In this document: in pieces, positions 10,795 to 53,456 of the stretch
How positions within the stretch are numbered: the first letter of the stretch is position 1
How the letters are laid out: each line of letters opens with the position of its first letter
From: an uncultured Gammaproteobacteria bacterium
GTDB taxonomy: Bacteria; Patescibacteriota; Microgenomatia; Daviesbacterales; UBA10151
Assembly (NCBI GenBank): GCA_964393525.1
Contig: CAYMTV010000002.1
Span: 23,001 to 87,000 of the forward strand
Direction: 5' to 3'
DNA: 64,000 nt
Notes under the pieces: model-generated
What the model was told of the DNA's origin: nothing
The model's database searches: none
The model's input: the letters and a program-made list of their open reading frames with translations, nothing else
Position numbers and translations under genes: made by a program

Positions 10795-10796
10795 AA

Positions 10797-22652: not shown

Positions 22653-23075
22653 ATGGTTAATGAGATATTACAATACGGCAAGAAAATTACCGGAGATTGG
22701 AATTTTTCTTTTTCTGGAAGGGAAAGATTAGCTTCTCTGGTAATCTTAATGCCAACTGGAATTGCAGATTTATCACTCAGATCCATGCAAAGTGGCCCCG
22801 AGTTTGTTACAAGTTTTGGACATGATATTATAACGGGTTTTGCTAGTTACCATTTATTTAAATTTATGGGCATAAACCCTAAAAGTAAATCCTATAATGC
22901 GGTAATGGGGTTTATTATGCCTTCAACTTATGAAATATCACAAGGTTTAGGTTTATGGAAAGGTACATTTGATTGGAATGATTTCCTGGCTTATGGAGCG
23001 GGTGTAGCCATAGGAGTCGGGATAGACTTAACTTTACATAGAGCGGGTCATACTCAATTTCAGTTAGAAGCGTAG
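22653..23075 (+). CDS. Hypothetical protein (140 aa)
   Basis: Open frame with genome-typical composition directly downstream of rsmH. No TM or recognisable motif. Its 3' end overlaps a convergent GT4 gene. Confidence 0.3.
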   Translation: MVNEILQYGKKITGDWNFSFSGRERLASLVILMPTGIADLSLRSMQSGPEFVTSFGHDIITGFASYHLFKFMGINPKSKSYNAVMGFIMPSTYEISQGLGLWKGTFDWNDFLAYGAGVAIGVGIDLTLHRAGHTQFQLEA

Positions 23076-24229
23076 ATTTTTAAAGTTTTTCCTGCTAAAT
23101 CTTTCCAATTGAATTGCTTATACCTTTTTTGTCCTTTCTTAATTAATTCACTCCTTACTGTTTCACTATTTAATACATCCATTATTTTTTGCTCCATGTC
23201 ACTAGATTCCTCGCGGAGTTTATCTCGAGCGAAGCCGAGAGACTCGGAATGACGAGGAAGGAGAGGATCAAAATACAAAGCAGCATTTCCGCCAATTTCC
23301 GGAAGCGAACCCTTATCTGAAGAAACCACAGGGCATTTGCATGCCATTGCTTCAAGAAGTGGGATACCGAACCCTTCTTCAAATGACGGCATTACAAAAC
23401 ACTTGGCGCTTTTGTATAAACAGATCAAATCCTTATCATCAATATACCCAGTGTAAATAATATCTTTTTGTTTGAACTCCTTTTTAATCCTTTCCCAAAA
23501 ATAATGGTCACTACCAGATAAAACTAATTGTAGATATTGGTAATTGTTTCTTAAATTTAAAAAGGTTTTTATTAACCCTTCCACATTTTTATGCGGATGG
23601 GCATTCCCAACATAAAAGATGAACGGTGGTTTAATTTGATATTTTTTTAAAGCTTTCCCAATTTCACTTTCTGTACAACAAGTCGCGGCCGCGATTAGTT
23701 GTTCTTCAACCCCCTCATAAGTTACTGCTATTTTATCTTGGTTAACATCCCATTTGTTTATTATTTGTTGTTTGACAAAATTAGATGGAACAATAACTTT
23801 TTGAGACTTCTTTAAGGCTGAGTTAAATACTTTTTTATAGCCCCATTGCTTTAATTTATAAACTAAAGGGTTTAAGGTCGTAGCTCTCCTCATCTGGAAA
23901 TGCTCATGGATTAGGTCGTGAATTGTAACAACAAATTTACCTCTGTATAAAATTGGAACATTAAAATGTGGGAAATGAACTAAATCTAATTTATATTTAT
24001 TTAAAAGGATTGGGAATTTAATTTGTTCTGATACTCCATACCATTTAAAATTGGCTAAAACTTTATGAAACTTCTTGTTATGATAGTCTAGTCTATAATA
24101 CTCGGGATGTGCTAAAAAAATATAATACTCATTTTTAGTATCTAACTTTTGTAAATTAAAAACTAAATTTCTGATGTATCTTCCAACTCCGGATTGCGAC
24201 CATAACCTGGCATCAATTCCTATGCGCAT
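23060..24229 (-). CDS. GT4-family glycosyltransferase
   Basis: FEEGFGIPLLEAMACKCPVVSSDKGSLPEIGGNAALYFDP. Carries an unusual GC-rich palindromic segment near its 3' end. Confidence 0.85.
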   Translation of the reverse strand: MRIGIDARLWSQSGVGRYIRNLVFNLQKLDTKNEYYIFLAHPEYYRLDYHNKKFHKVLANFKWYGVSEQIKFPILLNKYKLDLVHFPHFNVPILYRGKFVVTIHDLIHEHFQMRRATTLNPLVYKLKQWGYKKVFNSALKKSQKVIVPSNFVKQQIINKWDVNQDKIAVTYEGVEEQLIAAATCCTESEIGKALKKYQIKPPFIFYVGNAHPHKNVEGLIKTFLNLRNNYQYLQLVLSGSDHYFWERIKKEFKQKDIIYTGYIDDKDLICLYKSAKCFVMPSFEEGFGIPLLEAMACKCPVVSSDKGSLPEIGGNAALYFDPLLPRHSESLGFARDKLREESSDMEQKIMDVLNSETVRSELIKKGQKRYKQFNWKDLAGKTLKIYASN

Positions 24230-25102
24230 TTAAACCACCATTTTCCTTCTTGCCTGCCACTCTCTTAAATTGATCCCAAGATATACCAGCCAGTTTATAA
24301 AGAAAGGGTATTTTTTTTCGTAATGCTTTTTATAAAAAGTCCTCATTGACTCATAAAAAGACTCAAACGCCTTAAGTTTTGTTTGTTTATCAGCCTGGGC
24401 TATATCCTGAGAATGTTTCTTAAGTCCTGAAGATACTCCTTTTTGGTGGATTACTTCCACAGAAGGTTCGTAAATAATTTTATAACCCGACTTTTTGATC
24501 CGAAAACAAAGATCAATATCTTCAGCATACAAAAAATAATCCTCATCAAATGACCCAACCTGATCCAAAACCGATTTTCTGGTAAAGAAGAAAGCTCCAG
24601 CTATACTGTCTACTTCATGAGTTTTAGTCATATCTTTATAAGTTAAATGATAAAGGCTATCGTTTTGAAAAAAGTGATAAAGAAATGAGGCCCAAGGAGT
24701 AGGAAAACCGCGGTGAGCCGTAAGATCAATACTCCCATTTCCCAAAACAATTTTGCAAGTTGCAGCACCGATTTTTACATCCGAATTCATTAGCCCAATC
24801 ATCTTAGACAAAACACCCTTTTGAATTTTCGTGTCGGGGTTTAGAAGAAGAACATATTCGGTTTTAACAGCCCTGAGTGCCAAATTATTGGCTTTACCGA
24901 AACCCAAATTCAGGCGGTTTACAATAAAAGCTACGTCATTAAATTTTTCCTTAGCCTTTTTTATACTGTCATCGGTTGAGGCATTATCGACAACATAAGT
25001 GAAAATATCTGCCTCATCCGAAACTTTTTCTATCGACTCAAGGCATTCGAGTAAATAATCACCCGAATTAAAATTAACAATAATAATAGAAAGTTCAGCC
25101 AT
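24230..25102 (-). CDS. GT2-family (GT-A) glycosyltransferase
   Basis: LSIIIVNFNSGDYL...VVDNASTDDS; DxD-type YAEDIDL. Confidence 0.85.
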   Translation of the reverse strand: MAELSIIIVNFNSGDYLLECLESIEKVSDEADIFTYVVDNASTDDSIKKAKEKFNDVAFIVNRLNLGFGKANNLALRAVKTEYVLLLNPDTKIQKGVLSKMIGLMNSDVKIGAATCKIVLGNGSIDLTAHRGFPTPWASFLYHFFQNDSLYHLTYKDMTKTHEVDSIAGAFFFTRKSVLDQVGSFDEDYFLYAEDIDLCFRIKKSGYKIIYEPSVEVIHQKGVSSGLKKHSQDIAQADKQTKLKAFESFYESMRTFYKKHYEKKYPFFINWLVYLGINLREWQARRKMVV

Positions 25103-28929: not shown

Positions 28930-30362
28930 TCTGCATCTTTAAAATTTCTTATCACAGCCCAAGATACTCCCAGAATAAACCACAAAATACTGGCAACTTT
29001 TGAAGCCTCCAAAACATCTATAAATATACCTGTTAAAAGTACAGCAATCAAAGAACAAAGCGCACCTATGGTAAATGATTTTTCAAAGCTGATATTTTGT
29101 CTTATAAATTTAACCATACTCTTTATTATGAAAATAAATATTAGAGCTAATGCAAGTGTTCCCAAAATTCCTACTTCTCCTAAGGAGCGCAAAAAGTCAT
29201 TATCTGTGGCAATCGTGATTGAAGAGTAACCAGTTCCAAGGAATGGATTTTTATAAAACGCCCGCAGCGCCCTTGGCCACTCTACATCAAACCTAATACC
29301 AAAGGAGCGGGAAACTTCAAGTTCGGTGTAGTTTATGGGTTCTCCCGGGGCAATATCTGCCGGAACTGAAGATATCGTGGCACCGCTTTCTGTAGCTCCT
29401 TGAATTGACTCCCGCAAAATCGCAGCTTTTGAGCTTTCAGACAATTTTCTTAAGTTTGGCGGAGGACCGGCAGGTACATACTTTGGCCCTCCTCCTCCAA
29501 GTAAATTAACTGTTATTGTCGCAACCAGTCTGTGACGCAAATCAGGGACTGCTGCAACCATCCCTAAAGCCAAAATTATAAGCACCCCAACAAGAATTTT
29601 TTTCTGATTTAACCAAAGGCTTAAAGAAAGGGCTATGAGTGTTGCAACAAAAGATACCCTGGCAGCTGTAAGTCCCAGCAGTGCAAAACTCAAGATGCTT
29701 CCCAAAAAAATTGCCAGCTTGCTTTTGAAATTTTTATAGACAAAAAACAAACTTGCGGTAAATGAAAGAACAATTGACAAAAACACCGCCAAATCATAAT
29801 GGCCGGCAAATGTTGAGTTTACCCTGGCCTCGGGGGATAAAAGTAAAATCAGTCCTTTAGAAAACTCCCTGTTGGTGGTTGAAATTACAGGAAACTTTAG
29901 CCACTCCTGACCGAATCCATAAACTACTACTATTAATCCAACAATAAGTCCTGCCTTTAAGATTGTTTTTACCTGAGATAAAGATGTAATGGTGGTCGAA
30001 GCTACGACAAAAAACGTCATATACTCGATCCTTCTTAGCCAATGCAAAACTCCCAAATGCGGCGTAATTGAGTGAGTAATCAGCAGTGCAGAAATAATGG
30101 ATAAACCTCCTATTATCCAAAAAAGAATAAATGCCTGATAAATTGGCTGTTTTAAATACTCAAAAATCTTAAATTGCTTTTTGTAGACCCAAAACAGCGC
30201 AACTGCGGCAAACAGGATGTCCTCAATTCTTATCGCTACATAAGTTTTTGGGATATTTAAAAGGGGGAATTTAGGGTAGAGGGGGATAAAAATCATCAGC
30301 GCAAGCAGAAGCTTAAAAAGAGCTTTGTCGGACTTTAGAAAATTTGCAATTTTTTTAAACAT
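28926..30362 (-). CDS. O-antigen ligase / Wzy-type polymerase family membrane protein
   Basis: 12+ TM helices with a large periplasmic loop. DNDFLRSLGEVGILG resembles the Wzy_C HNxxLxxxxExGxxG motif. Confidence 0.6.
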   Translation of the reverse strand: MFKKIANFLKSDKALFKLLLALMIFIPLYPKFPLLNIPKTYVAIRIEDILFAAVALFWVYKKQFKIFEYLKQPIYQAFILFWIIGGLSIISALLITHSITPHLGVLHWLRRIEYMTFFVVASTTITSLSQVKTILKAGLIVGLIVVVYGFGQEWLKFPVISTTNREFSKGLILLLSPEARVNSTFAGHYDLAVFLSIVLSFTASLFFVYKNFKSKLAIFLGSILSFALLGLTAARVSFVATLIALSLSLWLNQKKILVGVLIILALGMVAAVPDLRHRLVATITVNLLGGGGPKYVPAGPPPNLRKLSESSKAAILRESIQGATESGATISSVPADIAPGEPINYTELEVSRSFGIRFDVEWPRALRAFYKNPFLGTGYSSITIATDNDFLRSLGEVGILGTLALALIFIFIIKSMVKFIRQNISFEKSFTIGALCSLIAVLLTGIFIDVLEASKVASILWFILGVSWAVIRNFKDAE

Positions 30363-31233
30363 TTAAAAGAACCTTTCCATAAATCAAAGCTTTTTCTTTT
30401 TTCCCGGTTAATAAGAAAGCAATTGCCCGTAAAATGATTGCAGCGTAAACAAATATTCTTACGAAAAAACCTGCGATCAATCCAAAATTTTCGTTATAAA
30501 ATCTTATCAGGCCCTGAAATTCTCCCTTCCATTGGGAGAGTCTTGGGTTTTTAGAGCTTGCTCCGCTGATGTGTTTTATCCTTACTTTAGGATTGATCAT
30601 TATTCTGTAACCTACTTTCTTTGCCCTGAAACACAAATCAACATCTTCAAAATACATAAAGTAGTTTTCATTAAAGTAGCCTATCCGATCGAGTATTTTT
30701 TTTCTTGCAAACATAAATGTTCCTCCAACCCAATCAACATCTTTGGCTTTTTGGTAATACTCATTATCAACCCTGTGGAAATTAGGAAAATTTTTAAAGT
30801 CTAAATTAAAAAGCCATGTAAAAAGGGCTACCCCAAAGGGTAAATCCCCACCGTTGGAATCAAGCCCCCCTTTTTGGTCTAACAATATACAACTGCTAAT
30901 TGCACAATCTGGATTAGCATCCATAAATTTAACCATCTCCTGTACTTCAATGCTTCCAAATTCCGTATCCGGATTTAATATTAATACATAATCATCGGTG
31001 ATTTTTTTTAAAATTTTGTTTTGACCTTTTGCAAAGCCAAGGTTTTCCCGGCTTTCTATTAATCCGACATCAGAGAATTCTTTCTTTAACATCTCAACGC
31101 TTCCATCGGAAGAGTTATTATCCAAAACCCAAATATTTAGCTTTTGTGATATTTGCTGTTTTTTTAACTGCTTTAGGCAATTTTTCAAAAAATCTTTGGT
31201 ATTAAACTCGACAATCGATACTCCAACCGGCAT
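30355..31233 (-). CDS. GT2-family glycosyltransferase
   Basis: VSIVEFNTKDFL...VLDNNSSDGS; FEDVDLCFR. Confidence 0.8.
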   Translation of the reverse strand: MPVGVSIVEFNTKDFLKNCLKQLKKQQISQKLNIWVLDNNSSDGSVEMLKKEFSDVGLIESRENLGFAKGQNKILKKITDDYVLILNPDTEFGSIEVQEMVKFMDANPDCAISSCILLDQKGGLDSNGGDLPFGVALFTWLFNLDFKNFPNFHRVDNEYYQKAKDVDWVGGTFMFARKKILDRIGYFNENYFMYFEDVDLCFRAKKVGYRIMINPKVRIKHISGASSKNPRLSQWKGEFQGLIRFYNENFGLIAGFFVRIFVYAAIILRAIAFLLTGKKEKALIYGKVLLNV

Positions 31234-31802
31234 TAATATTCCCTCCAGGATTTAATAAACAATTTATAGAGGGCTATCCCTGTCATCCAAATTCCAACAT
31301 AAACAATTATCCTGGCAAAGGGAGAAGAGGGGTAATATCTTAAGGTTGTTTTTGAATTGTAAAATACTCCGTCTATGTGGATAGTATCGCTGTAAAAACT
31401 GTGAGGAATATGTTGGAGATCATTTAAAACTTTTATGTCAAGTCCGCCGACAAAAATAGAATCTCTTAGTGGATACGTATATTCCTCAAGGAAAGTGGTT
31501 TTTAGCTGGTCTCTGATATAAGTATAAGCGTATTCTGGCGGATGATTTAACTTAATAGCAGGAATAAAGAAAGGCCAAAAATTACTTAACTGGTAGTGTC
31601 TTTTATAAAGACTAGTTATTTCTTCGCGCCTCCAAAAAGAATAATAGGCTGAAACATTTGGAATTTGGATAGTATCACCCTCCTCATTTGACTTTAAAGA
31701 ATCCGGTATAGGAGGAAAATTATCAATTGAAGTGGGTCCTGGATATAAGATATAGATGAAACCAACAATAAATATCAGCCTTAATATGATTTTTCTTACC
31801 AT
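31233..31802 (-). CDS. Hypothetical membrane-anchored protein
   Basis: N-terminal TM (IILRLIFIVGFIYILY) and ~160 aa extracytoplasmic region. No recognised motif. Confidence 0.4.
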   Translation of the reverse strand: MVRKIILRLIFIVGFIYILYPGPTSIDNFPPIPDSLKSNEEGDTIQIPNVSAYYSFWRREEITSLYKRHYQLSNFWPFFIPAIKLNHPPEYAYTYIRDQLKTTFLEEYTYPLRDSIFVGGLDIKVLNDLQHIPHSFYSDTIHIDGVFYNSKTTLRYYPSSPFARIIVYVGIWMTGIALYKLFIKSWREY

Positions 31803-31874: not shown

Positions 31875-32525
31875 CTATTGGAATAGACGAGCTCTACCTA
31901 GTTTATAAGTAGGATTCTTATTATTTCTTTCACCAATCACTTTCGCCGGGACTCCACCAACTATCTTAAAGTTTTCTACATCTTTTGTGACAACCGCTCC
32001 TGCGCCAACAACTGCACCTTTGCCAATTTTAACTCCGGGCAAAATTATCACTTTGGGGCCGATAAAAACATAATCACCAATTTCAACCGGAGCGGTTATC
32101 GGATGAAAATCTTCCGAGTGGATATCGTGCTCGGAATTATAAATCATTACATCTGAGGCAATATCAACATAGTTACCAATTGTCAATTTATCTCTTCCAT
32201 CCAAAAAAGCATTCTGTCCGATAATGCTTCCCTCACCAATTGAGATATTTGAAGGGTAAAAAAATTGCGTTCCCATGTGAATGTGAGCACCCTTTCCAAT
32301 TTGGACTCCATCCAGTGTGTAAAATATCCACCTAGCCCAAAAAATTGGTATAAATCCAATAAGTCTTAAGATAAACAGCTCAATATCCAAAAGATAGTTA
32401 TAAAACCTGTTAAAAACCTTGATAATGGCCTGACTAAACTTTAACTCTTTTCCTCCTTTGTCTTTGAAGACAATTTTTGGAATAAAGTTATTGAAGCTTA
32501 ACGATACGTTTTCCGAAAAAAACAT
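31875..32525 (-). CDS. Left-handed beta-helix (hexapeptide repeat) sugar O-/N-acetyltransferase
   Basis: Tandem hexapeptide repeats (IGKGAHIHMGTQ...IGEGSIIGQNAFL...IGNYVDIASDVMI...IGDYVFIGPKVIILPGVKIGKGAVVGAGAVV). Confidence 0.8.
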   Translation of the reverse strand: MFFSENVSLSFNNFIPKIVFKDKGGKELKFSQAIIKVFNRFYNYLLDIELFILRLIGFIPIFWARWIFYTLDGVQIGKGAHIHMGTQFFYPSNISIGEGSIIGQNAFLDGRDKLTIGNYVDIASDVMIYNSEHDIHSEDFHPITAPVEIGDYVFIGPKVIILPGVKIGKGAVVGAGAVVTKDVENFKIVGGVPAKVIGERNNKNPTYKLGRARLFQ

Positions 32526-32565: not shown

Positions 32566-33453
32566 TCATGGAAGATTCTTGAATTTATTTAATATTTCCT
32601 CATCGCTTAAAACCATTTCTTTTTTTTCTTTAGCTCGGGCTTCTGAGATTTTTGGATATTTATTTAATGCGCTAATAAAAGTAAGCCAGTAACTAGGGTT
32701 TAAAAACAGTTTTCTTAAAAGGGCTATCAGATGTTTATTTATCATATTTTTACTGGTGATATTTTTCCAGATAAACAAAAGCTGATTTCTTTGAGCTATT
32801 TTTGAGATATACTCTTTCGAAAAATTCTGCGCTATAACTCCCGGATGCCTGTAATGTTCAACTTGGGCTTTAGGTTCCCAAAGGTTAATATATCCTCTTT
32901 TAACAGCCCGATAGCCCAAATCTACATCTTCCTCATAAAACGGATTAAATACTTCATCCAGTCCACCTAATTTTTCCCATAAATCCTTCCGAAATATTCC
33001 ACTGCCACCGGAAGACCAAAGTGTTTCATGGGTTTCTAGCTTTTCTCCATGTTCCGCTTGAAAGTGCCAGAAGAATCCATCTGTAAAACGTGCCCATGAC
33101 CAATTTCCCTCGGTATTGCAGCTAACCGAGAAGACTTTTGGGTTGTCAAAATGGTTAATAACTTCATTTAAACAATCTTTCTTGGGTACTGCATCTGTAT
33201 TGAGAAGAAATACAAAATCTGCCCTAGCATTTTTTACTCCTACATTTACCGTGGAAGCAAACCCTTCATTCTTATTTTTTTGTATGAGTTTAATTTGAGG
33301 ATATCTAGTTTGCAAAAAATTAACACTATCATCTGTTGATTTATCATCAACAACAATTACCTCATCCACTCCTTCAACCTCTAAAACCTGTGGCAAGTTT
33401 TTTTCAAGCTTATCCTTCCCATTCCAGTTTGGGATTACTATTGATGCATTCAT
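32566..33453 (-). CDS. GT2-family glycosyltransferase
   Basis: ASIVIPNWNGKDKL...VVDDKSTDDS; YEEDVDLGYR. Confidence 0.8.
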   Translation of the reverse strand: MNASIVIPNWNGKDKLEKNLPQVLEVEGVDEVIVVDDKSTDDSVNFLQTRYPQIKLIQKNKNEGFASTVNVGVKNARADFVFLLNTDAVPKKDCLNEVINHFDNPKVFSVSCNTEGNWSWARFTDGFFWHFQAEHGEKLETHETLWSSGGSGIFRKDLWEKLGGLDEVFNPFYEEDVDLGYRAVKRGYINLWEPKAQVEHYRHPGVIAQNFSKEYISKIAQRNQLLFIWKNITSKNMINKHLIALLRKLFLNPSYWLTFISALNKYPKISEARAKEKKEMVLSDEEILNKFKNLP

Positions 33454-34565
33454 ACTGACTTAAGCACTTGAATTACCTCCTTGGCCATTTTTTTGAAAGA
33501 GAACTTTTTCGCCCTTTCTAAACCTAACTTTGATAATTTATCTCTAAGTTTTTTATCCGTTGATATGGTTCGGATTGCCTGCTCTATTTGGTCTGCCGAG
33601 TCGGGATTTACCAGTAGACCAGCGTTTCCAATAACCTCAGGCAGGGATGAAACGTTAGATGCAATGACCGGAGTTCCACAGGCCATAGCTTCAATAACAG
33701 GTATTCCAAAACCCTCCCATAAAGAAGGCAATATGAAAGCTTCTGCGCCATTTATTAAGTAAGGCATCTTGCTGTCTGGGACAAAGCCTGTAAAAACAAC
33801 CTTTTCTTCTATCCCGAGCTCTTTTGGCCTACTTAAAATTTCATCATACATCCAACCTTCTTTCCCATCTCCTTTGGCTTTGCCTACTATTACCAGTTTT
33901 AAGTTCTCAATATTCTTGAAAGACTCTATCAATTTTATAATATTTTTTTTTGGTTGGACTGTCCCTATGAAAATAATATACTTTCCCTCAATTCCATAGC
34001 TTCTCTTAACTTGATTAACCTCATCTGAATCATTAATTGGCATATAAATTGAATTGTCATATCCTGGGTAAGCCACGGTTATCTTTTCCTTGGGAATTTT
34101 GTAGTTTTTTAGTAAGTCTTTTTTTGTAGAATTTGAAATTGTAATTATGTGTGATGAATTTAATATAGAATATTTCGTCCAGTTTATGAGCTTATACAAA
34201 TCTTTTTTTTGAAAAGTTTGCGGAAAATGTAAAAAAGCCAGATCAAAAATTGTGCAAACTCTCTTAATATTCGTTATGTTAGGGATATAATGCGTAGGTG
34301 AAAAGAAAACATGAGGTTTATTCTTAGTAAACTTAATTTTTAAGGGTAAGGCGAGTCTGGTCCAGAAAAATTTTGGTTTTAGAACTTCATACTTAAACCC
34401 TTCTCTTGGAGCAGGCATGTCTAAAACGGGTTTATCCGGCAAAAACACCGTATAATCGTTTTCCAAATCATTCGCCTCAAAGGTTCGAATTAGTTCATAA
34501 GCTATTTGGCCTGATCCAAGCCTTTGAGAAACATTTGCTTCATATCCATCGACCCAAATATTCAT
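33450..34565 (-). CDS. GT4-family glycosyltransferase
   Basis: WEGFGIPVIEAMACGTPVIASNVSSLPEVIGNAGLLVNP. Confidence 0.85.
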   Translation of the reverse strand: MNIWVDGYEANVSQRLGSGQIAYELIRTFEANDLENDYTVFLPDKPVLDMPAPREGFKYEVLKPKFFWTRLALPLKIKFTKNKPHVFFSPTHYIPNITNIKRVCTIFDLAFLHFPQTFQKKDLYKLINWTKYSILNSSHIITISNSTKKDLLKNYKIPKEKITVAYPGYDNSIYMPINDSDEVNQVKRSYGIEGKYIIFIGTVQPKKNIIKLIESFKNIENLKLVIVGKAKGDGKEGWMYDEILSRPKELGIEEKVVFTGFVPDSKMPYLINGAEAFILPSLWEGFGIPVIEAMACGTPVIASNVSSLPEVIGNAGLLVNPDSADQIEQAIRTISTDKKLRDKLSKLGLERAKKFSFKKMAKEVIQVLKSV

Positions 34566-35566
34566 TTTATTAAACTCCTGTACAAGCTGGCAGTTTCTTC
34601 AGCGCATTTTTCCCAACTAAAGAACTTAGCACGTTCCTCCCCTTTTTTTATTACAAAATCTTTTTCGCTTATAGCCTCTTCTATTCCTTTTTTAATTTGG
34701 CTCAGATCTGTGGGATCTACAATTATTGCCGCGTCTCCCGCAATCTCAGGCATTGATGAAACATTGGAGGTAACCACCGGACATCTGCAAGCCATTGCTT
34801 CAATTATTGGCAAACCAAAACCTTCATATAAAGTTGTATAGACTAAGCAATCGGCAGAAGAATATAATAGTGGCGTGTCATCTGCCGGAATGTAGGGTAA
34901 ATCTTCACCCATTATCACTAAATTATAACCATCAGATGCTTGTTTGATCCTTCTTAAATTTTTTCTTTCTCCGATTCCCCCTATTGCTAAAATAAAATGT
35001 TCCGGTAAGCTATATTTTTTCTTAAACTCAAAAACTTTGCGCTCGGGTTGAGGTTTATATATCTCTGAGACCCCCTCATAGATTATTACAATCTTTTCCC
35101 CAGGAATATTGGAAACTGACATTAAATCTTTTTTAGTACTTTCTGAAACTGCTATTACCATATCGATTTCTTTTTCTACTATTTTTAACCTTGTTTTATG
35201 AACTTCGGAAATTTTGGGATGAGACCAGTTTGGGAATTTTATTGGTACAAGGTCGTGATAGGTTGTTACTTTTTTTGCTTTGGTTTTTGGTTGAGTTCAT
35301 TCGGAGCTGTGGAAAATATCATTATTGCCAACAAATGATCCTATTGGAAATTTGCGGTATTTGTTAAACAGAATTTCAAGCAGTGTCGGCGGCATTGGAA
35401 ATTTTGCCACATTTTTAAGACTTCCTTTGTATGGCTTTCGGAGGGACGAATAAAAGAATTTCATTTGAAAATCCCTAATCCTTGACAGTTGTTCTGCAAG
35501 TTTATCGGTGTATACACCTACTCCCCCGCCATGGGCACTTTGTGAGATGTCAAATCCTACTACCAT
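34562..35566 (-). pseudogene. GT4-family glycosyltransferase interrupted by one in-frame TGA (at 35297-35299). The N-terminal fragment is 35297-35566 and the C-terminal fragment 34562-35161, in the same frame.
   Basis: Reading through the TGA by hand gives a continuous GT4 protein: ...NNDIFHSSE*TQPKTKAKKVTTYHDLVPIKFPNWSHPKISEV...EGFGLPIIEAMACRCPVVTSNVSSMPEIAGDAAIIVDP. There is no frameshift, only this single stop. Confidence 0.55.
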
Positions 35567-35587
35567 ATTGTTAATTGTATCAAAGCG

Positions 35588-37432
35588 TTAGACTATTGGC
35601 TTAATATGCATTGGATCTGCCAAAAAAATTGATGTTAAATGCCAAATGTATAGCAAAATAAAAAACCCAACTAATACATTTCTTAATCTTTTGGGAAGCT
35701 TCATTAAAACAATTGCAAAAATAGCCCCAAGTATAATATGTATGGCAGGATACAAAATCACACTGAAAAACATACTATCAAACAACTTTGCCGGATTTAA
35801 CCTTAAGAAAGCTGCTGCCTGAAAAGAGGGAAAATCCTGATTTACAAATATTATTTTTAGTGGCTTTTCAAAAGCGATTCCTATAAATCTTAATGCATCA
35901 ATGGCAAACCCAAAGTAATAAATATTTGATAACTGAATATACCGTAAAGATTGAATTACAGGATCCAACCCAAATGACAACGGTATAAACCAAACAGTAA
36001 ATCTCCTAAATTTAATTGTAATCAAGATTATCGTTAATAGACTTGTTAAAAACAGAATTATTTTAAAAAGAATAGGAAAAGGAAGCTGTGGTCCAAAGAA
36101 AACTGTCCACCCATATAAGTTAAAAGACCTAAAAATTAGTCCAAATGAGGCAAAAGCAAACATTACACCCAAAAACCATAACAAAAATCTTTTTTTAATA
36201 ACCGCATAAGCAAAAGTTAACACCAAAATCAAAATAAAAATAAAATTATAATCTTCGGTATTTTTCTGTTGGAGTTTTAGAGGCAGTCTCCGGTCCAGGA
36301 AATTGCTTTTATCAGGCAAAAAATAATCACTAAAGGATATATTCTGCTCATAGTTTATGAATTCTTTATGAAAAATGCTTTTACGAAGATTTGGATTTAG
36401 TTCCCAAACAGCCTCATTAAGTTGAATTTTTGCCGTCTTTGGAAAGTCCTGAAAAATTCCTTTATACTCATCATAAAATTTTGATAAGGTAACTGCTTTT
36501 AAATTACTGATTTCCTTTAATGATTCAAGCTGTTTTGCATATTCACCTATATAGCCTACACTTTCAATTCCTGTTTCCAAACCCACTGTTATTTGACCTA
36601 TTTTATTTTCACAACTTAAATAAGAATTAACCAGTCGCAAGAAGTAACCTGTATCCTTGCCTTGTCTTATATAATCATTTGCCTGGAGAGAGTAATTTGA
36701 AAACTTGGGTCCATCCCCATAAGCTAAAAAAGAATCTCTTTGCGCCCATTGAAGAATTACAACGTCTTGCTTGACCTTCAAGTTACTGACAGGAGTCAAG
36801 ATGTTTGCTCTAGATGGATAGTATGGCACTCCCCACCACTGCCCCCAGACACCGTAATTATCGGTTGTCTTCTGATCGGCTACAATCATAGCCGCTTTAA
36901 TACCAAACTTTTCTTTTAAATAATTAAGGGAATACGAATCTATCCACCAGGCCCCGACAGATTTCGGAAAATATCCAAACTTATCTTTAAACTCTCTAAA
37001 TAACTCATCAATTAACTTCTTTCTTTCCGATTGCGTATAACCGGAAAGAAAAACAGCCTGCGGATAAAACCAGGCAACATCCTGCGGATAAATCACCCGC
37101 CCTTTTTCCGCCAAGTTTTTTGAAATTTCAAGAAAGACCCCTATTTCCTGTTTGTTGTTAAAAGTTTTGATTTTTGACAAAAGGGCTGCATCATTTAGCG
37201 TATCATATTGAACAAGCCAGGTTGCTTGGAAGTTGTATTTACTAATTAAATCGTACTGATCACTAATCGGTTTGAGGCTTTTATCAGTCCAGAGATCCCT
37301 CCCCCTAACCGGATTTACCAAGGTAAGGTATCTGTTAGGGCAACTAATATTTTCTTGTGCTTTAACAGTCGAAGAATTGACTAAAAGGACTACAGTAATA
37401 AATATTGTGAGAAGTTTATTGCGCTTTTGCAT
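35588..37432 (-). CDS. Hypothetical protein: signal peptide, ~380 aa extracytoplasmic domain, then a C-terminal 6-8 TM domain
   Basis: The N-terminus MQKRNKLLTIFITVVLLVNSSTVKAQE looks like a signal peptide. The Trp/Tyr-rich extracellular domain (GVWGQWWGVPYYP) suggests carbohydrate binding or processing. Hydrophobic C-terminal third. Confidence 0.45.
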   Translation of the reverse strand: MQKRNKLLTIFITVVLLVNSSTVKAQENISCPNRYLTLVNPVRGRDLWTDKSLKPISDQYDLISKYNFQATWLVQYDTLNDAALLSKIKTFNNKQEIGVFLEISKNLAEKGRVIYPQDVAWFYPQAVFLSGYTQSERKKLIDELFREFKDKFGYFPKSVGAWWIDSYSLNYLKEKFGIKAAMIVADQKTTDNYGVWGQWWGVPYYPSRANILTPVSNLKVKQDVVILQWAQRDSFLAYGDGPKFSNYSLQANDYIRQGKDTGYFLRLVNSYLSCENKIGQITVGLETGIESVGYIGEYAKQLESLKEISNLKAVTLSKFYDEYKGIFQDFPKTAKIQLNEAVWELNPNLRKSIFHKEFINYEQNISFSDYFLPDKSNFLDRRLPLKLQQKNTEDYNFIFILILVLTFAYAVIKKRFLLWFLGVMFAFASFGLIFRSFNLYGWTVFFGPQLPFPILFKIILFLTSLLTIILITIKFRRFTVWFIPLSFGLDPVIQSLRYIQLSNIYYFGFAIDALRFIGIAFEKPLKIIFVNQDFPSFQAAAFLRLNPAKLFDSMFFSVILYPAIHIILGAIFAIVLMKLPKRLRNVLVGFFILLYIWHLTSIFLADPMHIKPIV

Positions 37433-38822
37433 ATTGATGAATAAAACCTACTCCCCTAAAGTCATAAGTTTCTATTTTTTTGTATCCTAGAGATTGAAGC
37501 TGTTTTTCCAATAATCTTTCAGGGTCTGTAATACCTGCTAAATACTCAAATAAGTAAATTGGATTTTTACTCATATTGATTATTTTTAAATCTTGCAGAG
37601 TTTGAGCTGGAATTCTTTCTAACCCGGGGGTAGCAATCTTAGGATCTGTCTGGTAGTAGATTACGGGTGCTGGAATTTCATTATTCTCAAATATAATTAA
37701 GGAGTTGGAATTTGCTTGCTGATTGATAAATTTAACAGCTCCTTTCCAATCCTCCCGATGAAACTTAGGGTTTAAAAGATACATCAGGCTGAAAAATGAC
37801 TGCATAACAATTAAAGCTACAAGCGCAATAATTCTAAGCTTGCCTCCCAGCCTTTCCAGACCAATTGAAACCAATAGATAAAATGCCGGAAGTATAAAAA
37901 TAAACCTGAAATAAGAAAACACCGGAACAAAAAAAGATATTAAAAAGGCCAAAAGCGGAGGCACTATTAACCACAAAAAAATGTAATCCAACTCCAAGAT
38001 CTTTTTCCTTACCTTTCCTAAAATCAACAAATAATTTATAGAGACAAACACGGAAACTAAAGCGTACAAAAACATGTTATCAAAAGACACTTTGCCAATT
38101 AAACTTTTAACCCAAAGAAGTCCGATTTCTTTTATTCGAACCCCGCCAACCACTTCTTTCCAACCTGTCAAAGAACTTGCGGTAGTAATTCCTTGGGAAA
38201 ACTGGTCTCGAAAAACCAAAATCCAGGGACTATAGATAATTAAACTTATTAAAAAAGCCTTTTGAACCTTTTGTATTTTTTGTTTTTCATGGAGCAAAAG
38301 ATAAATGATTTGAGCAGGGAACAAAAAGTAAGCTACATAATCTGAGTAAAAGACTAGGGCTGAGGATAAAATATATCCTGTTAAAAATTTCAAATCATTT
38401 TTTTTTAATAACTTGATAAAAAAATATGAAGAAAGGGATACTGCAAATGCGGCCAAGGAATAAGGCCTAGCCTCCTGGGAGTAATAAATATGCAGCGGGG
38501 CAATGGCCAAAAGCATACTCGAGAATATTCCAACTTTCTTAGAGAATTCTTTTCCACTCAGGTAAGTTATATATACTGTAGCTACCCCAAAAAAGACGGG
38601 GAGCAATCTTATAATGACTTCTGAGTTATTAAGACGCACCCAAACCCAAAGTAATGCAAACCATAAAGGCGGATGAAAATCTCCTAATGGATATTTTGTA
38701 ACAAAATCCCAAAAATTAAATCTTTGAGCATAAACCACATTTATTGCCTCATCAAACCATAAACTTTGATTTAAACTAATAACTCTGATGAAAAAAGCAA
38801 ATATTAGTATTAGAAAAATCAT
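37416..38822 (-). CDS. GT-C fold glycosyltransferase (PMT_2/ArnT-like)
   Basis: Polytopic with first-loop motif SLWFDEAINVVYA (the DE motif of GT39/GT83-type GT-C enzymes); C-terminal soluble domain. Confidence 0.6.
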   Translation of the reverse strand: MIFLILIFAFFIRVISLNQSLWFDEAINVVYAQRFNFWDFVTKYPLGDFHPPLWFALLWVWVRLNNSEVIIRLLPVFFGVATVYITYLSGKEFSKKVGIFSSMLLAIAPLHIYYSQEARPYSLAAFAVSLSSYFFIKLLKKNDLKFLTGYILSSALVFYSDYVAYFLFPAQIIYLLLHEKQKIQKVQKAFLISLIIYSPWILVFRDQFSQGITTASSLTGWKEVVGGVRIKEIGLLWVKSLIGKVSFDNMFLYALVSVFVSINYLLILGKVRKKILELDYIFLWLIVPPLLAFLISFFVPVFSYFRFIFILPAFYLLVSIGLERLGGKLRIIALVALIVMQSFFSLMYLLNPKFHREDWKGAVKFINQQANSNSLIIFENNEIPAPVIYYQTDPKIATPGLERIPAQTLQDLKIINMSKNPIYLFEYLAGITDPERLLEKQLQSLGYKKIETYDFRGVGFIHQYAKAQ

Positions 38823-38823
38823 A

Positions 38824-39975
38824 CTAAGAAATATAATAACCTCTGGAAAAAAACATTAATAGAATAAAAAGAAGTACTGGAGAGATTATGAAGTAAATTA
38901 ATTTAAATATTTTATTCTCTATTAAGCCTATGGTAATAAAAATGGGGAATAAAACAATCGTGTATCTTGGAAGGCCTGAAAAAGTACCACTTAATACCGG
39001 AATTAAAAATGCAACTAGCGAGTATATCAGGTAAGAAGTTTTTATTTTTTTCTTCCAAGCAACAACAAGCATGCAGATAACAAAGACAAAAACAGATATC
39101 TCAAGCATAGCAATCCACCACTCAAGTTGAGTTGCAGGTAAATAAAAAAATATTTTCAAATATCTAAATATGGTTTGGAAAGGAAAGACTATTGTATCAA
39201 GTGATCTGCTGTTTCCCTGCGCACCATGGGCATAGAGAAAATTTAAAAAATCTCCCCATTTAAAATATGAATATAGAGAAAAACCTATTAAACCAAAAGG
39301 CACTAAAAGAATACTGAAAAATTTATACATATTTTTTCTCATTTTAAGTAATTCATATAAAATTGCAGGGAAAATGGAGATTCCAACAAGCCTTGTACTT
39401 GTAAGTAGCATTCCAGCAAGACCTGCAAAAAACCAGTTACCTTTTTCTATAAAATAGAACACAACAAGTACTAGCATCAAAAATAGACTTTCAGAATAAA
39501 TTGAACCAAAGAAAAATGACGTCGGAAATAGAGCCATTGAAACTGTTGCTATTTTGGCAGCTTTTTCTGAATACTCCTTTTTAACTAATTTATAAAAAAA
39601 TATTAGCGCTAAGAAGAAAAATAAATTTGCCAGAATTAAACCGCTTAAAAATTGGACTTCGCTATATGCAATCTTATCTCCCAGTAACCCCGATAGAAAA
39701 TTTATTAAGATAGGGAACGAAGGAAAAAAACGACCATCAGTTGTATAGCCATTTCCTGCAATAGAAAGATAATGCACCCCATCAAAATTAGCCCATGGGT
39801 ATACTAAGTAAGATTTAATAAAAGAGTCACTACTTACAAAGTTTAAGACATTGGTAAAATCACTATTTGCCCTATATTGAATATTTTGGCTAAAAATTAA
39901 TGGGATAAAAAGAATTATTCTCCAAATAAGAAAAAATACTAAAACAAATTTGAAATCCTTCATGGATAACTTCAA
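38824..39975 (-). CDS. GT-C mannosyltransferase-like membrane protein (PIG-V / Mannosyltransf_2-like)
   Basis: YPWANFDGVHYLSIAGNGYT resembles the W-D-x-x-H-[FY]-x-x-I-A-x-x-G-Y signature of the PIG-V/GT76 family. About 10 TM helices. Confidence 0.55.
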   Translation of the reverse strand: MKLSMKDFKFVLVFFLIWRIILFIPLIFSQNIQYRANSDFTNVLNFVSSDSFIKSYLVYPWANFDGVHYLSIAGNGYTTDGRFFPSFPILINFLSGLLGDKIAYSEVQFLSGLILANLFFFLALIFFYKLVKKEYSEKAAKIATVSMALFPTSFFFGSIYSESLFLMLVLVVFYFIEKGNWFFAGLAGMLLTSTRLVGISIFPAILYELLKMRKNMYKFFSILLVPFGLIGFSLYSYFKWGDFLNFLYAHGAQGNSRSLDTIVFPFQTIFRYLKIFFYLPATQLEWWIAMLEISVFVFVICMLVVAWKKKIKTSYLIYSLVAFLIPVLSGTFSGLPRYTIVLFPIFITIGLIENKIFKLIYFIISPVLLFILLMFFSRGYYIS

Positions 39976-45902: not shown

Positions 45903-47065
45903 AAAGTATTCCCCTGGTTGATTTAAAAGCTCAGTATAAAACAATCAAACCAAAGATACATTTAGCGATTAAGAAGGTACTCGATTCATCTTATTTTATA
46001 TTGGGTGATGAAGTTTGGGATTTTGAAAAGAAATTCGCCGAGTATTCTGAAGTAAAATATGCCATTGGTGTAGCCTCGGGGTTAGATGCTTTGGAATTAG
46101 GAATGAGAGCATTAGGGATAGGTGTTGGTGATGAAGTTATAACACCTGCCAACAGTTTTATTGCCTCTAGCTCTGCTATATCTTTTACAGGTGCAACACC
46201 AATATTAGTTGATTGTGAAGAAAACACCTTCAATATAGACCCAGCCAGAATTGAAGAAAAGATAACCAAAAAGACAAAAGCTATTATGCCAGTTCATCTT
46301 TATGGAAGGCCTGCAGATATGGACCAAACTCTAAAGATTGCAAAGAAACATAACTTAATGGTTATTGAAGACGCTTGCCAGGCCCATGGTGCAAGATATA
46401 AAGGAAAACGGGTTGGTTCATTCGGAAATTTTGGAGCTTTTTCTTTTTATCCGGGAAAAAATCTGGGCGCTTATGGAGATGGAGGAATTATTACTACAAA
46501 CAATAAAACGCTTGCCGATACTGTAGCCAAAATGCGCAACTATGGCCAGGCTCAAAAGTACCATCATGATTATCTTGCCTGGAATAGCAGGCTTGATACA
46601 ATCCAAGCCGCAATACTTTTGATTAAATTAAAAAAACTTGATAAATGGAATGGCGGGAGGCGGGAAATTGCTCAAGAATATAACAGGTTACTAAAGAATC
46701 TGCCCATTATTGTACCCGAGATTCCAAAAAACATCGATCATATCTTCCACCTTTATGTAATAAGAACCAAAAATCGTGATGATTTGGCAAAGTATTTAAA
46801 CCAAAAAGGTATCGCAACCGGTTTACATTATCCTATCCCGATCCATTTGCAAAAAGCCTATCAAGACTTAGGTTATAAAAAAGGTGATTTTCCGGTTAGT
46901 GAAAAGCTGGCTGAGGAAATTCTTACCTTGCCAATTTATCCTGAACTTAAAGATTCGGAAGTTGAATATATTGCCATAAGTATAAGACAGTTTTTTAAAT
47001 TTACTAGTTCTTTAAACCCAGTTTTAACAAAAACAGGGGGCGCGCCATTTTCCACCAGTCGATAA
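45899..47065 (+). CDS. DegT/DnrJ/EryC1/StrS-family PLP-dependent sugar aminotransferase (WbpE/GnnB-like)
   Basis: IPLVDLKAQYKTIKPKI...; AIGVASGLDALELG; SFYPGKNLGAYGDGG (Lys-containing PLP region). Confidence 0.85.
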   Translation: MKSIPLVDLKAQYKTIKPKIHLAIKKVLDSSYFILGDEVWDFEKKFAEYSEVKYAIGVASGLDALELGMRALGIGVGDEVITPANSFIASSSAISFTGATPILVDCEENTFNIDPARIEEKITKKTKAIMPVHLYGRPADMDQTLKIAKKHNLMVIEDACQAHGARYKGKRVGSFGNFGAFSFYPGKNLGAYGDGGIITTNNKTLADTVAKMRNYGQAQKYHHDYLAWNSRLDTIQAAILLIKLKKLDKWNGGRREIAQEYNRLLKNLPIIVPEIPKNIDHIFHLYVIRTKNRDDLAKYLNQKGIATGLHYPIPIHLQKAYQDLGYKKGDFPVSEKLAEEILTLPIYPELKDSEVEYIAISIRQFFKFTSSLNPVLTKTGGAPFSTSR

Positions 47066-52670: not shown

Positions 52671-53456
52671 TTGATGTTGAGACTTTTTTCAACTCCCTTT
52701 ATATCTTTTCGGTACTTACTCTCCCAGCTTACCTTAAGAGAAATTAAAGCTCGCTACAAACAGTCCATTCTGGGATACGCCTGGGTTTTGTTAAATCCGC
52801 TCATACAGCTTTTAGTATATTCTTTTGTATTTTCTATAGTTTTTAAATTCCCGATGGAGAACACCCCATACTCAATCTTTTTATTCATAGGACTTTTGCC
52901 TTGGATATACTTACATACATCACTTTCACAAGCTGCACTGGTTTTAGTTGATAACTCAGATCTTTTGAAAAAAGTCTATTTTCCAAGAGAAATACTGCCT
53001 TACTCTGTGATACTTGCTAAAAGTATTGATCTATTTTTTGCATCAATGCTTTTGATTGCATTTATGTTTTTTTATAAGCTCCCATTTTATCCCAGCATGT
53101 TTATGATAGTTCCAGTTTTTTTAATCCAGGTTATTTTGATGGGTGGTCTAGCACTTTTTTTGTCCGCAGCTAATTTATTCTACAGAGACATCCAGTATTT
53201 AACTAATCTTATACTTTTGATGTGGATGTATTTAACGCCTGTGGTTTACCCATTATCTTTAGTGCCAAAGGATTTCCTTTGGGTTTATAGTCTAAACCCA
53301 ATGGTTGGGATTATCGAGGGTTATAGAGCCGCAATTTTTAATCGACCCCCGGATTATCCTACTATTGTCTGGTCAGTTTTAATATCTTTGATTATATTTA
53401 TCTTTGGTTTTTGGGGATTTAAAAAAAGTGAAAAAGTTTTTGCAGATATTGTCTAA
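52671..53456 (+). CDS. wzm: ABC-2 type polysaccharide export permease (Wzm/TagG-like)
   Basis: LTLREIKARYKQSILGYAWVLLNPLIQLLVYSFVF is the canonical Wzm N-terminus; 6 TM helices. Confidence 0.85.
   Translation: MMLRLFSTPFISFRYLLSQLTLREIKARYKQSILGYAWVLLNPLIQLLVYSFVFSIVFKFPMENTPYSIFLFIGLLPWIYLHTSLSQAALVLVDNSDLLKKVYFPREILPYSVILAKSIDLFFASMLLIAFMFFYKLPFYPSMFMIVPVFLIQVILMGGLALFLSAANLFYRDIQYLTNLILLMWMYLTPVVYPLSLVPKDFLWVYSLNPMVGIIEGYRAAIFNRPPDYPTIVWSVLISLIIFIFGFWGFKKSEKVFADIV

What the first reader, a model, noticed from the sequence alone, without database searches (positions are those of the whole stretch)
34562..35566. GT4 glycosyltransferase gene interrupted by a single in-frame TGA
The N-terminal (35297-35566) and C-terminal (34562-35161) GT4 fragments are in the same frame, separated only by TGA at 35297-35299. 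Read-through gives an uninterrupted, well-formed GT4: ...IFHSSE[*]TQPK...VTTYHDLVP.... TGA is a bona fide stop elsewhere in the window (mraZ, ftsQ, ftsW, ftsI), so genome-wide UGA recoding is unlikely. The options are a recent nonsense pseudogene, a sequencing error, or programmed read-through / phase variation of a surface-glycan enzyme.
Basis: seen in the sequence. Interest (0 to 1): 0.5.

Follow-up and report, generated by a model that had tools for sequence, protein, structure and literature searches.

The report
Glycosyltransferase gene broken by one stop codon
A conserved sugar-transferase gene of a Daviesbacteria-like genome carries a single premature stop where every relative, including a near-identical contig from the same population, has tryptophan; this is an ordinary fresh knock-out allele or an assembly miscall, not special decoding.

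Summary
The minus-strand ORF 35566..34562 is a full-length GT4 glycosyltransferase with one in-frame TGA at codon 90 (35299..35297).

- **Normal code.** TGA is an ordinary terminator here: 19 of 50 long ORFs end in it.
- **Ancestral codon is Trp.** All 67 closest homologs have Trp at this position and Asp just before it. Five syntenic Daviesbacteria/Microgenomates orthologs are single ORFs reading GAT/GAC-TGG.
- **An intact allele exists.** Contig L082 (Logan assembly of run SRR12113384) is identical to the window over about 950 nt. At this site it reads GAT TGG (Asp-Trp) where the window reads GAA TGA. It also has Ile, not Asn, at codon 82.
- **The differences are clustered.** Three or four differences lie within 29 nt, and each is an A on the window's coding strand. 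Elsewhere there are only 2 isolated SNPs in about 14 kb compared.
- **No recoding signal.** There is no hairpin downstream of the TGA, no Rfam match, no repeat tract and no Cys at the site in homologs.

Conclusion: TGG became TGA, either as a very recent strain-level null allele or as a local consensus error in the MAG. Only the reads can separate these. Programmed read-through, selenocysteine, code change and phase variation are not supported. Interest is low.

The parts
34562..35566 (-). GT4 (GT-B, retaining-type) glycosyltransferase gene: 334 sense positions, one internal TGA, and a terminal TGA at 34564..34562 that overlaps the next gene's ATG (ATGA).
   Evidence: Full-length match to about 338-aa homologs; Pfam PF13439 and PF00534 above cut-off; AlphaFold model pLDDT 93.5; best PDB matches are MshA, BshA, PimA and sucrose-phosphate synthase.
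35297..35299 (-). Premature stop, codon 90 (TGA). The ancestral codon is TGG (Trp). The difference from L082 is at 35297 (window A, L082 G on the coding strand).
   Evidence: Trp in 67/67 homologs; TGG in L001-L005; L082 reads TGG.
35300..35302 (-). Codon 89 is GAA (Glu) where the family has invariant Asp. L082 reads GAT. The difference is at 35300 (window A, L082 T).
35321..35326 (-). Codons 81-82 are AAT AAT (Asn-Asn). L082 reads xGT ATT (x-Ile). The family has V/L/I/M at codon 82 in 67/67 and is variable at codon 81. Differences are at 35322 (A vs T) and 35325 (A vs G; this one abuts the adapter in L082).
35297..35566 (-). N-terminal fragment ORF (89 aa), deposited at NCBI as a separate protein. 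It ends just after predicted strand 84-88, so it holds only about half of the N-terminal Rossmann domain.
34562..35161 (-). C-terminal fragment ORF (199 aa, starting at Met136), essentially the donor-binding C-terminal domain. Its start is an internal Met of the full-length protein.
33450..34565 (-). Downstream paralogous GT4 (371 aa), intact, start overlapping the broken gene's stop (ATGA). Same neighbour as in the orthologous loci.
35588..37432 (-). Upstream 614-aa membrane protein with no family match, syntenic with the GT4 in relatives. It is followed by a 21-nt gap before the GT4 start.

Best explanation
A conserved Trp codon (TGG, codon 90) of an otherwise intact GT4 glycosyltransferase gene reads TGA in this genome. 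The gene sits in an operon-like surface-glycan cluster.

I take the change to be a real and very recent loss-of-function allele. It would have arisen in one clustered mutational event that also changed codons 89, 82 and probably 81. It coexists in the sampled population with the intact Asp-Trp allele.

Translation stops after 89 residues, half-way through the N-terminal Rossmann domain, so no active enzyme is made. At most, a trace of full-length protein could arise from ordinary near-cognate reading of UGA by tRNA-Trp.

**Shown:** the stop, its Trp ancestry, the intact allele in a near-identical contig, the clustering of the differences, and the absence of recoding signals.

**Inferred:** that the window's allele is real rather than a consensus error, and that it is non-functional.
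For: - **The stop is real in this sequence.** There is a single internal stop in a 334-codon ORF.
- **TGA is a normal terminator.** 19 of 50 long ORFs end in it, and no other gene is joined through a TGA.
- **The ancestral codon is Trp.** Trp in 67/67 homologs at codon 90, Asp in 67/67 at codon 89, V/L/I/M in 67/67 at codon 82.
- **Orthologs are whole.** Five loci with the same gene order (PMT_2 - 614-aa membrane protein - GT4 - GT4 - GT2) carry an uninterrupted ortholog reading GAT/GAC-TGG.
- **An intact allele exists nearby.** L082 (SRR12113384) is identical to the window over about 950 nt but reads ATT...GAT TGG.
- **The patch is an outlier.** About 14.0 kb of aligned Logan contig from four runs (about 10.5 kb of unique window sequence) shows only 2 other, isolated, differences. 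Three or four differences in 29 nt therefore cannot be ordinary strain divergence (my Poisson estimate: P about 1e-8).
- **No decay elsewhere in the gene.**
  - The N- and C-terminal parts are equally similar to the family (0.614 vs 0.611).
  - All 52 columns invariant across the alignment, window included, are by definition kept.
  - The window departs from 9 of 132 near-invariant columns; the homologs average 4.5, with a maximum of 12.
- **The source is otherwise clean.** It is a 93-kb NCBI MAG contig with long intact ORFs.
Against: - All four differences are non-synonymous and all are A on the window's coding strand (36% A gives about 0.02 by chance). Three hit family-invariant positions. 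A compact patch like this is also what a local consensus or error-correction artefact would look like.
- Only one contig (L082) covers the site. It ends in a Nextera adapter 25 nt upstream, so no allele frequencies are known.
- The 89-aa fragment is recorded from the NCBI contig alone, so no independent assembly confirms the TGA allele.
Confidence: 0.55

Rival explanations
1. Assembly or consensus artefact. The organism really carries GAT TGG (an intact gene), and the MAG's 3-4 A calls in this 29-nt patch are a local error from mis-correction, a low-coverage path or a chimeric bubble resolution.
For: - The only independent sequence over the site has the intact, family-consistent allele.
- The differences are tightly clustered, all towards A, all non-synonymous, against about 1.4e-4 differences per nt elsewhere.
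- The rest of the gene is undecayed.
- The TGA allele is recorded only from the NCBI MAG.
Against: - The window otherwise looks accurate: 50 long ORFs, no other broken genes found among the adjacent pairs I checked, and 100% identity to Logan contigs elsewhere.
- Short-read assemblers normally emit paths supported by real k-mers.
- Adapter-adjacent sequence in Logan contigs is not generically wrong (L084 matches perfectly from the first base after the adapter). That supports L082, but it does not show that the MAG is wrong.
Confidence: 0.35
2. Programmed or functionally relevant UGA read-through as Trp, or a strain moving towards UGA=Trp, so that the gene still yields useful full-length enzyme.
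For: - The ancestral residue is Trp. From general knowledge (not tested here), wild-type tRNA-Trp is the usual near-cognate reader of UGA in bacteria, so any leaked product would carry the right residue at codon 90.
Against: - No relative has a stop here (0/67 and 0/5).
- The 91 nt around and downstream of the TGA fold no better than shuffles (-4 kcal/mol, z = +0.61), and there is no Rfam hit.
- TGA terminates 19/50 ORFs, including this gene and its neighbour, at the same ends as their orthologs.
- Any leaked product would still carry E89 and N82 at invariant positions.
- The abstract of PMC13462651 lists UGA-to-Trp reassignment in Bacillota, Pseudomonadota and Verrucomicrobiota, and newly Actinomycetota. 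It does not list Patescibacteria.
Confidence: 0.03
3. Selenocysteine codon: the UGA is decoded as Sec through a bacterial SECIS element.
For: Only that the codon is UGA.
Against: - Homologs have Trp, never Cys or Sec.
- There is no hairpin immediately downstream and no Rfam match.
- There is no tRNA of any kind in the window.
- Retaining GT4 enzymes are not redox enzymes (general knowledge).
Confidence: 0.005
4. Phase variation, or a functional split gene. Either the stop is a reversible switch of a surface-glycan enzyme, or the two halves act as separate subunits as in Alg13/Alg14.
For: - The gene lies in a surface-glycan cluster, and two alleles (on and off) exist in one population.
Against: - There is no repeat tract or invertible element. 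The change is a set of base substitutions, the frame is unchanged, and the A7 run 25 nt downstream is identical in both alleles.
- The break falls inside the N-terminal domain after strand 84-88, not between domains.
- The first possible restart is 45 codons downstream.
- No relative is split.
Confidence: 0.02

Closest known systems
Nonsense-mutated (TGG to TGA) pseudogene or segregating null allele of a surface-polysaccharide glycosyltransferase
   Same: A single G-to-A transition at the third base of a Trp codon truncates an otherwise intact gene. Intact and broken alleles occur in near-identical genomes. The gene is one of many glycosyltransferases in a glycan cluster.
   Different: The stop comes with 2-3 further substitutions within 29 nt, all to A on the coding strand. 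A simple point mutation does not explain that, and an artefact remains possible.
Retaining GT4 / GT-B glycosyltransferases (MshA, BshA, PimA, sucrose-phosphate synthase)
   Same: Pfam Glyco_transf_4 plus Glycos_transf_1. Predicted two-Rossmann GT-B fold with TM about 0.78 to MshA 3c4q and SPS 6kih. E-x7-E motif (E248...E256).
   Different: Only about 18-20% identity to solved structures. No NCBIfam equivalog reaches its cut-off, so donor and acceptor are unknown. The ORF is interrupted here.
UGA-recoding lineages: code 25 in Gracilibacteria/Absconditabacteria, code 4 in Mycoplasmatales and others
   Same: An in-frame UGA at a conserved Trp position in a Patescibacteria-type genome.
   Different: It is a single case. 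TGA ends 38% of the long ORFs here, and orthologs in the same clade use TGG. The organism uses the standard code.

Membership tests
GT4 glycosyltransferase (GT-B fold) | Pfam Glyco_transf_4 (N-terminal domain) and Glycos_transf_1 (C-terminal domain) above gathering scores | tested here: met
   PF13439 50.3 bits (cut-off 28.5), residues 14-166; PF00534 74.7 bits (cut-off 26.4), residues 151-302.
GT4 glycosyltransferase (GT-B fold) | Two Rossmann-like domains matching solved GT4 enzymes | tested here: met
   (pLDDT 93.5, pTM 0.91). (MshA 3c4q E = 1e-17, TMq 0.79; BshA, PimA, WaaG also matched).
GT4 glycosyltransferase (GT-B fold) | E-x7-E motif in the C-terminal domain | tested here: met
   The sequence YEGFGLPIIEAMA has E248 and E256. 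E248, G249, F250 and G251 are invariant in the 68-sequence alignment.
GT4 glycosyltransferase (GT-B fold) | Uninterrupted reading frame, i.e. a functional gene | tested here: not met
   TGA at codon 90. An intact allele exists in L082.
Bacterial selenoprotein gene | UGA aligned with Cys or Sec in homologs | tested here: not met
   Trp in 67/67 homologs.
Bacterial selenoprotein gene | SECIS hairpin immediately 3' of the UGA | tested here: not met
   MFE -4 kcal/mol, z = +0.61, with no hairpin near the UGA; no Rfam hit at E <= 1.
Bacterial selenoprotein gene | selA, selB, selC and selD present in the genome | not testable with these tools
   Only 64 kb of the genome is available, and it holds no tRNA.
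Genome-wide UGA reassignment (code 4 or 25) | TGA not used as a terminator, and many in-frame TGAs at conserved Trp or Gly positions | tested here: not met
   19/50 long ORFs end in TGA, and this is the only TGA-joined pair; the neighbouring GT4 ends at its TGA exactly where orthologs end.
Programmed stop-codon read-through | The stop is conserved in relatives, with a stimulatory context or structure | tested here: not met
   no relative has a stop; no structure.
Phase-variable contingency gene | A simple-sequence repeat or invertible segment that toggles the frame | tested here: not met
   the alleles differ by substitutions only, and there is no repeat at the site.
Diversity-generating retroelement target (considered because all the differences involve adenines) | A template-repeat copy of the variable region nearby | tested here: not met
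   no copy longer than 14 nt of 35200-35450 anywhere in the 64-kb window.
Diversity-generating retroelement target (considered because all the differences involve adenines) | A reverse transcriptase gene in the neighbourhood | not tested
   Only about 25 of the 50 long ORFs were scanned against Pfam or NCBIfam. None of those was a reverse transcriptase.

The most novel reading that the evidence does not exclude
The off allele is real and arose in one burst of three or four substitutions to adenine within 29 nt, for example one error-prone or lesion-bypass synthesis tract. It is kept alongside the intact allele in a Daviesbacteria population because loss of this glycosyltransferase changes the surface glycan, for instance under phage or host-attachment selection. 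Leaky UGA-to-Trp decoding might leave a trace of activity.
Probability: 0.1. Interest if true: 0.3.

Novelty: already known. Interest (0 to 1): 0.1.

Why it matters
It matters little beyond annotation. The two deposited proteins (89 aa and 199 aa) should be treated as one disrupted GT4 gene or as a miscalled site. They are not evidence of recoding in Microgenomates/Daviesbacteria.

If reads confirm both alleles, this would be a small documented case of on/off polymorphism of a surface-glycan enzyme within an uncultivated CPR population. That would be mildly useful for studies of strain-level glycan variation.

The case also shows that cheap cross-checks against independent read-based assemblies can resolve apparent in-frame stops in MAGs.

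Tried and rejected
- **Genome-wide recoding.** Rejected from the stop-codon census.
- **Selenocysteine or read-through signal.** Folding of the 91 nt around the TGA and an Rfam scan of 34000-36200 at E <= 1 both found nothing.
- **DGR-like or templated mutation**, considered because every difference is an A in the window.
  - There is no repeat of the region.
  - An 11-mer (TCCGAATGAAC) that covers both changed bases recurs at about 46416-46426, and a 7-nt inverted match lies about 85 nt downstream. Both are within chance expectation for 128 kb of AT-rich sequence, so I dropped them.
- **Recombination import of a decayed N-terminal segment.** The N and C parts are equally similar to the family, so this is not supported.
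- **Search for more copies of the site.**
  - Two scans of JGI metagenome contigs found nothing.
  - The genome-contig scan returned only orthologs of at most 63% identity.
  - Exact look-ups of the 89-aa fragment and the 614-aa neighbour returned no contig DNA.
  - A protein search with the N-terminal 88 aa found only the NCBI entry itself and two hits of 64-68% identity.
  - A paper search for the run accession found nothing.
- **Other same-frame adjacent ORF pairs** (24230-25102 with 23060-24229; 52671-53456 with 53460-54194). I checked them as possible further broken genes. They are distinct genes: GT2 and GT4, and ABC-2 permease and ABC ATPase.

Full report
**1. The observation**

On the minus strand, 35566..34562 translates as 334 codons plus a terminal TGA. 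There is exactly one internal stop, at codon 90...NNDIFHSSE*TQPKTKAKKVTTYHDLVP.... The TGA occupies 35299..35297.

The mechanical ORF list gives an 89-aa ORF (35297-35566) and a 199-aa ORF (34562-35161). No start codon lies in frame between the TGA and Met136.

The window has 35.7% G+C. Of its 50 long ORFs, 23 end in TAA, 19 in TGA and 8 in TAG. Several TGA stops sit in ATGA overlaps, including the end of this gene. No other pair of long ORFs is bridged by a single TGA.

**2. What the gene is**

- **Family.** With X at codon 90, the read-through product passes the Pfam cut-offs for Glyco_transf_4 (residues 14-166, spanning the stop) and Glycos_transf_1.
- **Homologs.** It matches thousands of proteins. 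The best are 57-65% identical over 99-100% of its length and mostly 331-354 aa long. Those that carry a name are Candidatus Daviesbacteria or Patescibacteria glycosyltransferases.
- **Specific function.** No NCBIfam equivalog reaches its cut-off, so donor and acceptor are unknown.
- **Fold.** With the 68-sequence alignment, AlphaFold gives a confident GT-B fold (pLDDT 93.5, pTM 0.91). Its best PDB matches are the retaining GT4 enzymes MshA, sucrose-phosphate synthase, GlgM, BshA, PimA and WaaG.
- **Position of the stop.** It falls right after predicted strand 84-88 (DIFHS), in the middle of the N-terminal Rossmann domain. The 89-aa product cannot be a functional enzyme. The 199-aa ORF is essentially the C-terminal domain alone, starting at an internal Met.

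**3. The surroundings**

The gene lies in a tightly packed minus-strand run. In order of transcription it reads:

1. PMT_2-family transferase (37416-38822)
2. 614-aa membrane protein with no family match (35588-37432)
3. this GT4
4. a second GT4 (33450-34565, ATGA overlap)
5. GT2 (32566-33453)
6. hexapeptide acetyltransferase (31875-32525)
7. a 189-aa protein with no family match (31233-31802)
8. GT2-like (30355-31233)

A PIG-V-like mannosyltransferase (38824-39975) lies just upstream of the run. More GT4 and GT2 genes and a Bac_transf priming transferase lie at 20-25 kb. This is a surface-glycan biosynthesis region with many partly redundant transferases.

**4. What relatives have at the site**

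In the alignment of 67 close homologs, the column of the stop is Trp in 67/67. The preceding column is Asp in 67/67, where the window has Glu. Codon 82 is V/L/I/M in 67/67, where the window has Asn.

Five genome loci (L001-L005: three labelled Daviesbacteria, one Microgenomates, and L003, whose record is labelled 'uncultured Gammaproteobacteria') hold an uninterrupted ortholog reading GAT/GAC-TGG. It runs a further 250-253 codons to its stop. L002, L004 and L005 keep the neighbouring membrane protein, PMT_2 and second GT4, and L001, L004 and L005 also keep the GT2. L001 keeps all but the membrane protein; L003 keeps only PMT_2.

No relative is split. The ancestral codon is therefore TGG, and the stop is one G-to-A transition away.

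**5. The same organism elsewhere**

The window's proteins are on record from one NCBI contig of 93,397 bp. There the two fragments were deposited as separate proteins.

Logan assemblies of four sequencing runs (SRR12113383, SRR12113384, SRR12113424, SRR12113430) contain the same organism. Eight contigs are involved, giving 14.0 kb of alignment and about 10.5 kb of unique window sequence. Outside the GT4 site they differ from the window at only two isolated positions, 31034 and 4750.

One contig, L082 (SRR12113384, 1000 nt), covers the site. It is identical to the window from 35296 down to 34344. Upstream of that it reads ...GT ATT GAT ATT TTC CAC AGC TCC GAT TGG ACT..., against the window's ...AT AAT GAT ATT TTC CAC AGC TCC GAA TGA ACT.... 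L082 then ends in a Nextera adapter.

L082 therefore encodes Ile82, Asp89 and Trp90, exactly the family consensus at all three conserved positions. Random read errors would not restore three conserved residues, so the L082 allele is genuine and ancestral.

A control supports this. L084, from the same run, also begins with adapter yet matches the window perfectly from the first genomic base. Adapter-adjacent sequence is therefore not generically unreliable.

**6. Reading the cluster**

There are three differences, or four if the one abutting the adapter is counted, within 29 nt. The background is about 1.4e-4 differences per nt. By my Poisson estimate from the counts, this has P of about 1e-8, so ordinary strain divergence does not explain it.

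All the differences are A on the window's coding strand. With 36% A in the gene, that is about 0.02 by chance. All are non-synonymous.

The rest of the gene shows no decay:

- The N- and C-terminal parts are equally similar to the family (0.614 vs 0.611).
- All 52 columns invariant across the alignment, window included, are by definition kept.
- The window departs from 9 of 132 near-invariant columns. Homologs average 4.5 (sd 2.3, maximum 12). Three of the window's nine lie at or beside the stop (codons 76, 89, 90), and the Asn at codon 82 is a further departure from the family.

So the patch is one event. It is either a single clustered mutation that created a very recent null allele, or a local error in the MAG consensus.

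I found no template for it. There is no repeat of the region in the window, and the short matches I did find are within chance. I also found no evidence of an imported decayed segment.

Without reads the two cannot be separated. I lean slightly to a real allele (0.55 against 0.35). The window is otherwise clean, and assemblers usually emit paths supported by reads. The artefact reading remains serious, because the only independent sequence over the site is intact.

**7. Recoding hypotheses**

- **Selenocysteine.** Homologs have Trp, not Cys. The 91 nt around and downstream of the TGA fold at -4 kcal/mol, no better than shuffles (z = +0.61), with no hairpin near the UGA. No Rfam family matches 34000-36200 even at E <= 1.
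- **Code change.** It is excluded by the normal use of TGA as a stop. As background, the abstract of PMC13462651 (found) lists UGA-to-Trp reassignment in Bacillota, Pseudomonadota, Verrucomicrobiota and Actinomycetota. From my own knowledge, UGA-to-Gly occurs in Gracilibacteria/Absconditabacteria, not in Microgenomates.
- **Programmed read-through.** No relative has a stop and there is no stimulatory structure.
- **Phase variation.** The alleles differ by substitutions. The frame is unchanged and the nearby A7 run is identical in both.
- **Split enzyme.** The break is inside a domain, 45 codons are orphaned, and no relative is split.
- **What remains.** From general knowledge, UGA is the leakiest stop and tRNA-Trp is its usual near-cognate reader. 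A trace of full-length protein is conceivable. It would still carry E89 and N82 at invariant positions.

**8. Likely consequences (inferred)**

If the allele is real, the strain lacks this transferase. Its surface glycan would probably lack one sugar addition. Because the gene's natural stop overlaps the next GT4's start (ATGA), premature termination 245 codons upstream may also lower translational coupling into that gene.

**9. Verdict**

This is an ordinary TGG-to-TGA nonsense allele of a conserved GT4 gene, or a miscall of it, with an intact allele documented in the same population. It is not a new kind of feature. Interest is low.

Noticed in passing
window 34784-34786 (codon 261, AGA) on the minus strand: Arg replaces a Gly that is conserved in at least 90% of homologs, in the EAMACG.PV motif of the C-terminal domain. 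L082 is identical here, so both the broken and the intact allele carry it. It is a lineage-specific change of unknown effect.
   Followed up: partly
window 55091-55280 and 57274-57463: A 190-nt stretch is 92.6% identical between the two adjacent genes 55067-57247 (726 aa) and 57244-59379 (711 aa). They look like tandem paralogs, and neither has any Pfam match.
   Followed up: partly
L082:1-18 and L084:1-19: Logan contigs of run SRR12113384 begin with the Nextera mosaic-end adapter (AGATGTGTATAAGAGACAG). This is untrimmed adapter in a public assembly. In L082 it supplies an in-frame TAA, which is why the gene caller reported only the 199-aa ORF.
   Followed up: yes
window 31034 and 4750: These are the only other differences between the window and about 14 kb of Logan contigs from four runs (L084 C vs window T; L088 A vs window C, both as read on the minus strand). 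The sampled population is nearly clonal.
   Followed up: partly
window 35588-37432: A 614-aa multi-pass membrane protein has no Pfam or NCBIfam match but is 48-50% identical and syntenic (next to the GT4) in three related genomes. It is a conserved uncharacterised component of this glycan cluster.
   Followed up: partly
window 20000-41700: An unusually long run of glycan-biosynthesis genes lies downstream of the cell-division and mur genes at 1-12 kb. It holds at least four GT4, four GT2 or GT2-like, a Bac_transf priming transferase, a PMT_2, a PIG-V-like mannosyltransferase and a WcaF-like acetyltransferase.
   Followed up: partly
window 10180-10836 and 10797-12005: A MurB-like ORF (FAD_binding_4) is only 218 aa long, starts with TTG and overlaps the preceding Mur ligase gene by 40 nt. 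I did not examine whether it is a short form or has a mis-set start.
   Followed up: no
window 1-64000: ARAGORN finds no tRNA or tmRNA gene anywhere in the 64 kb.
   Followed up: no
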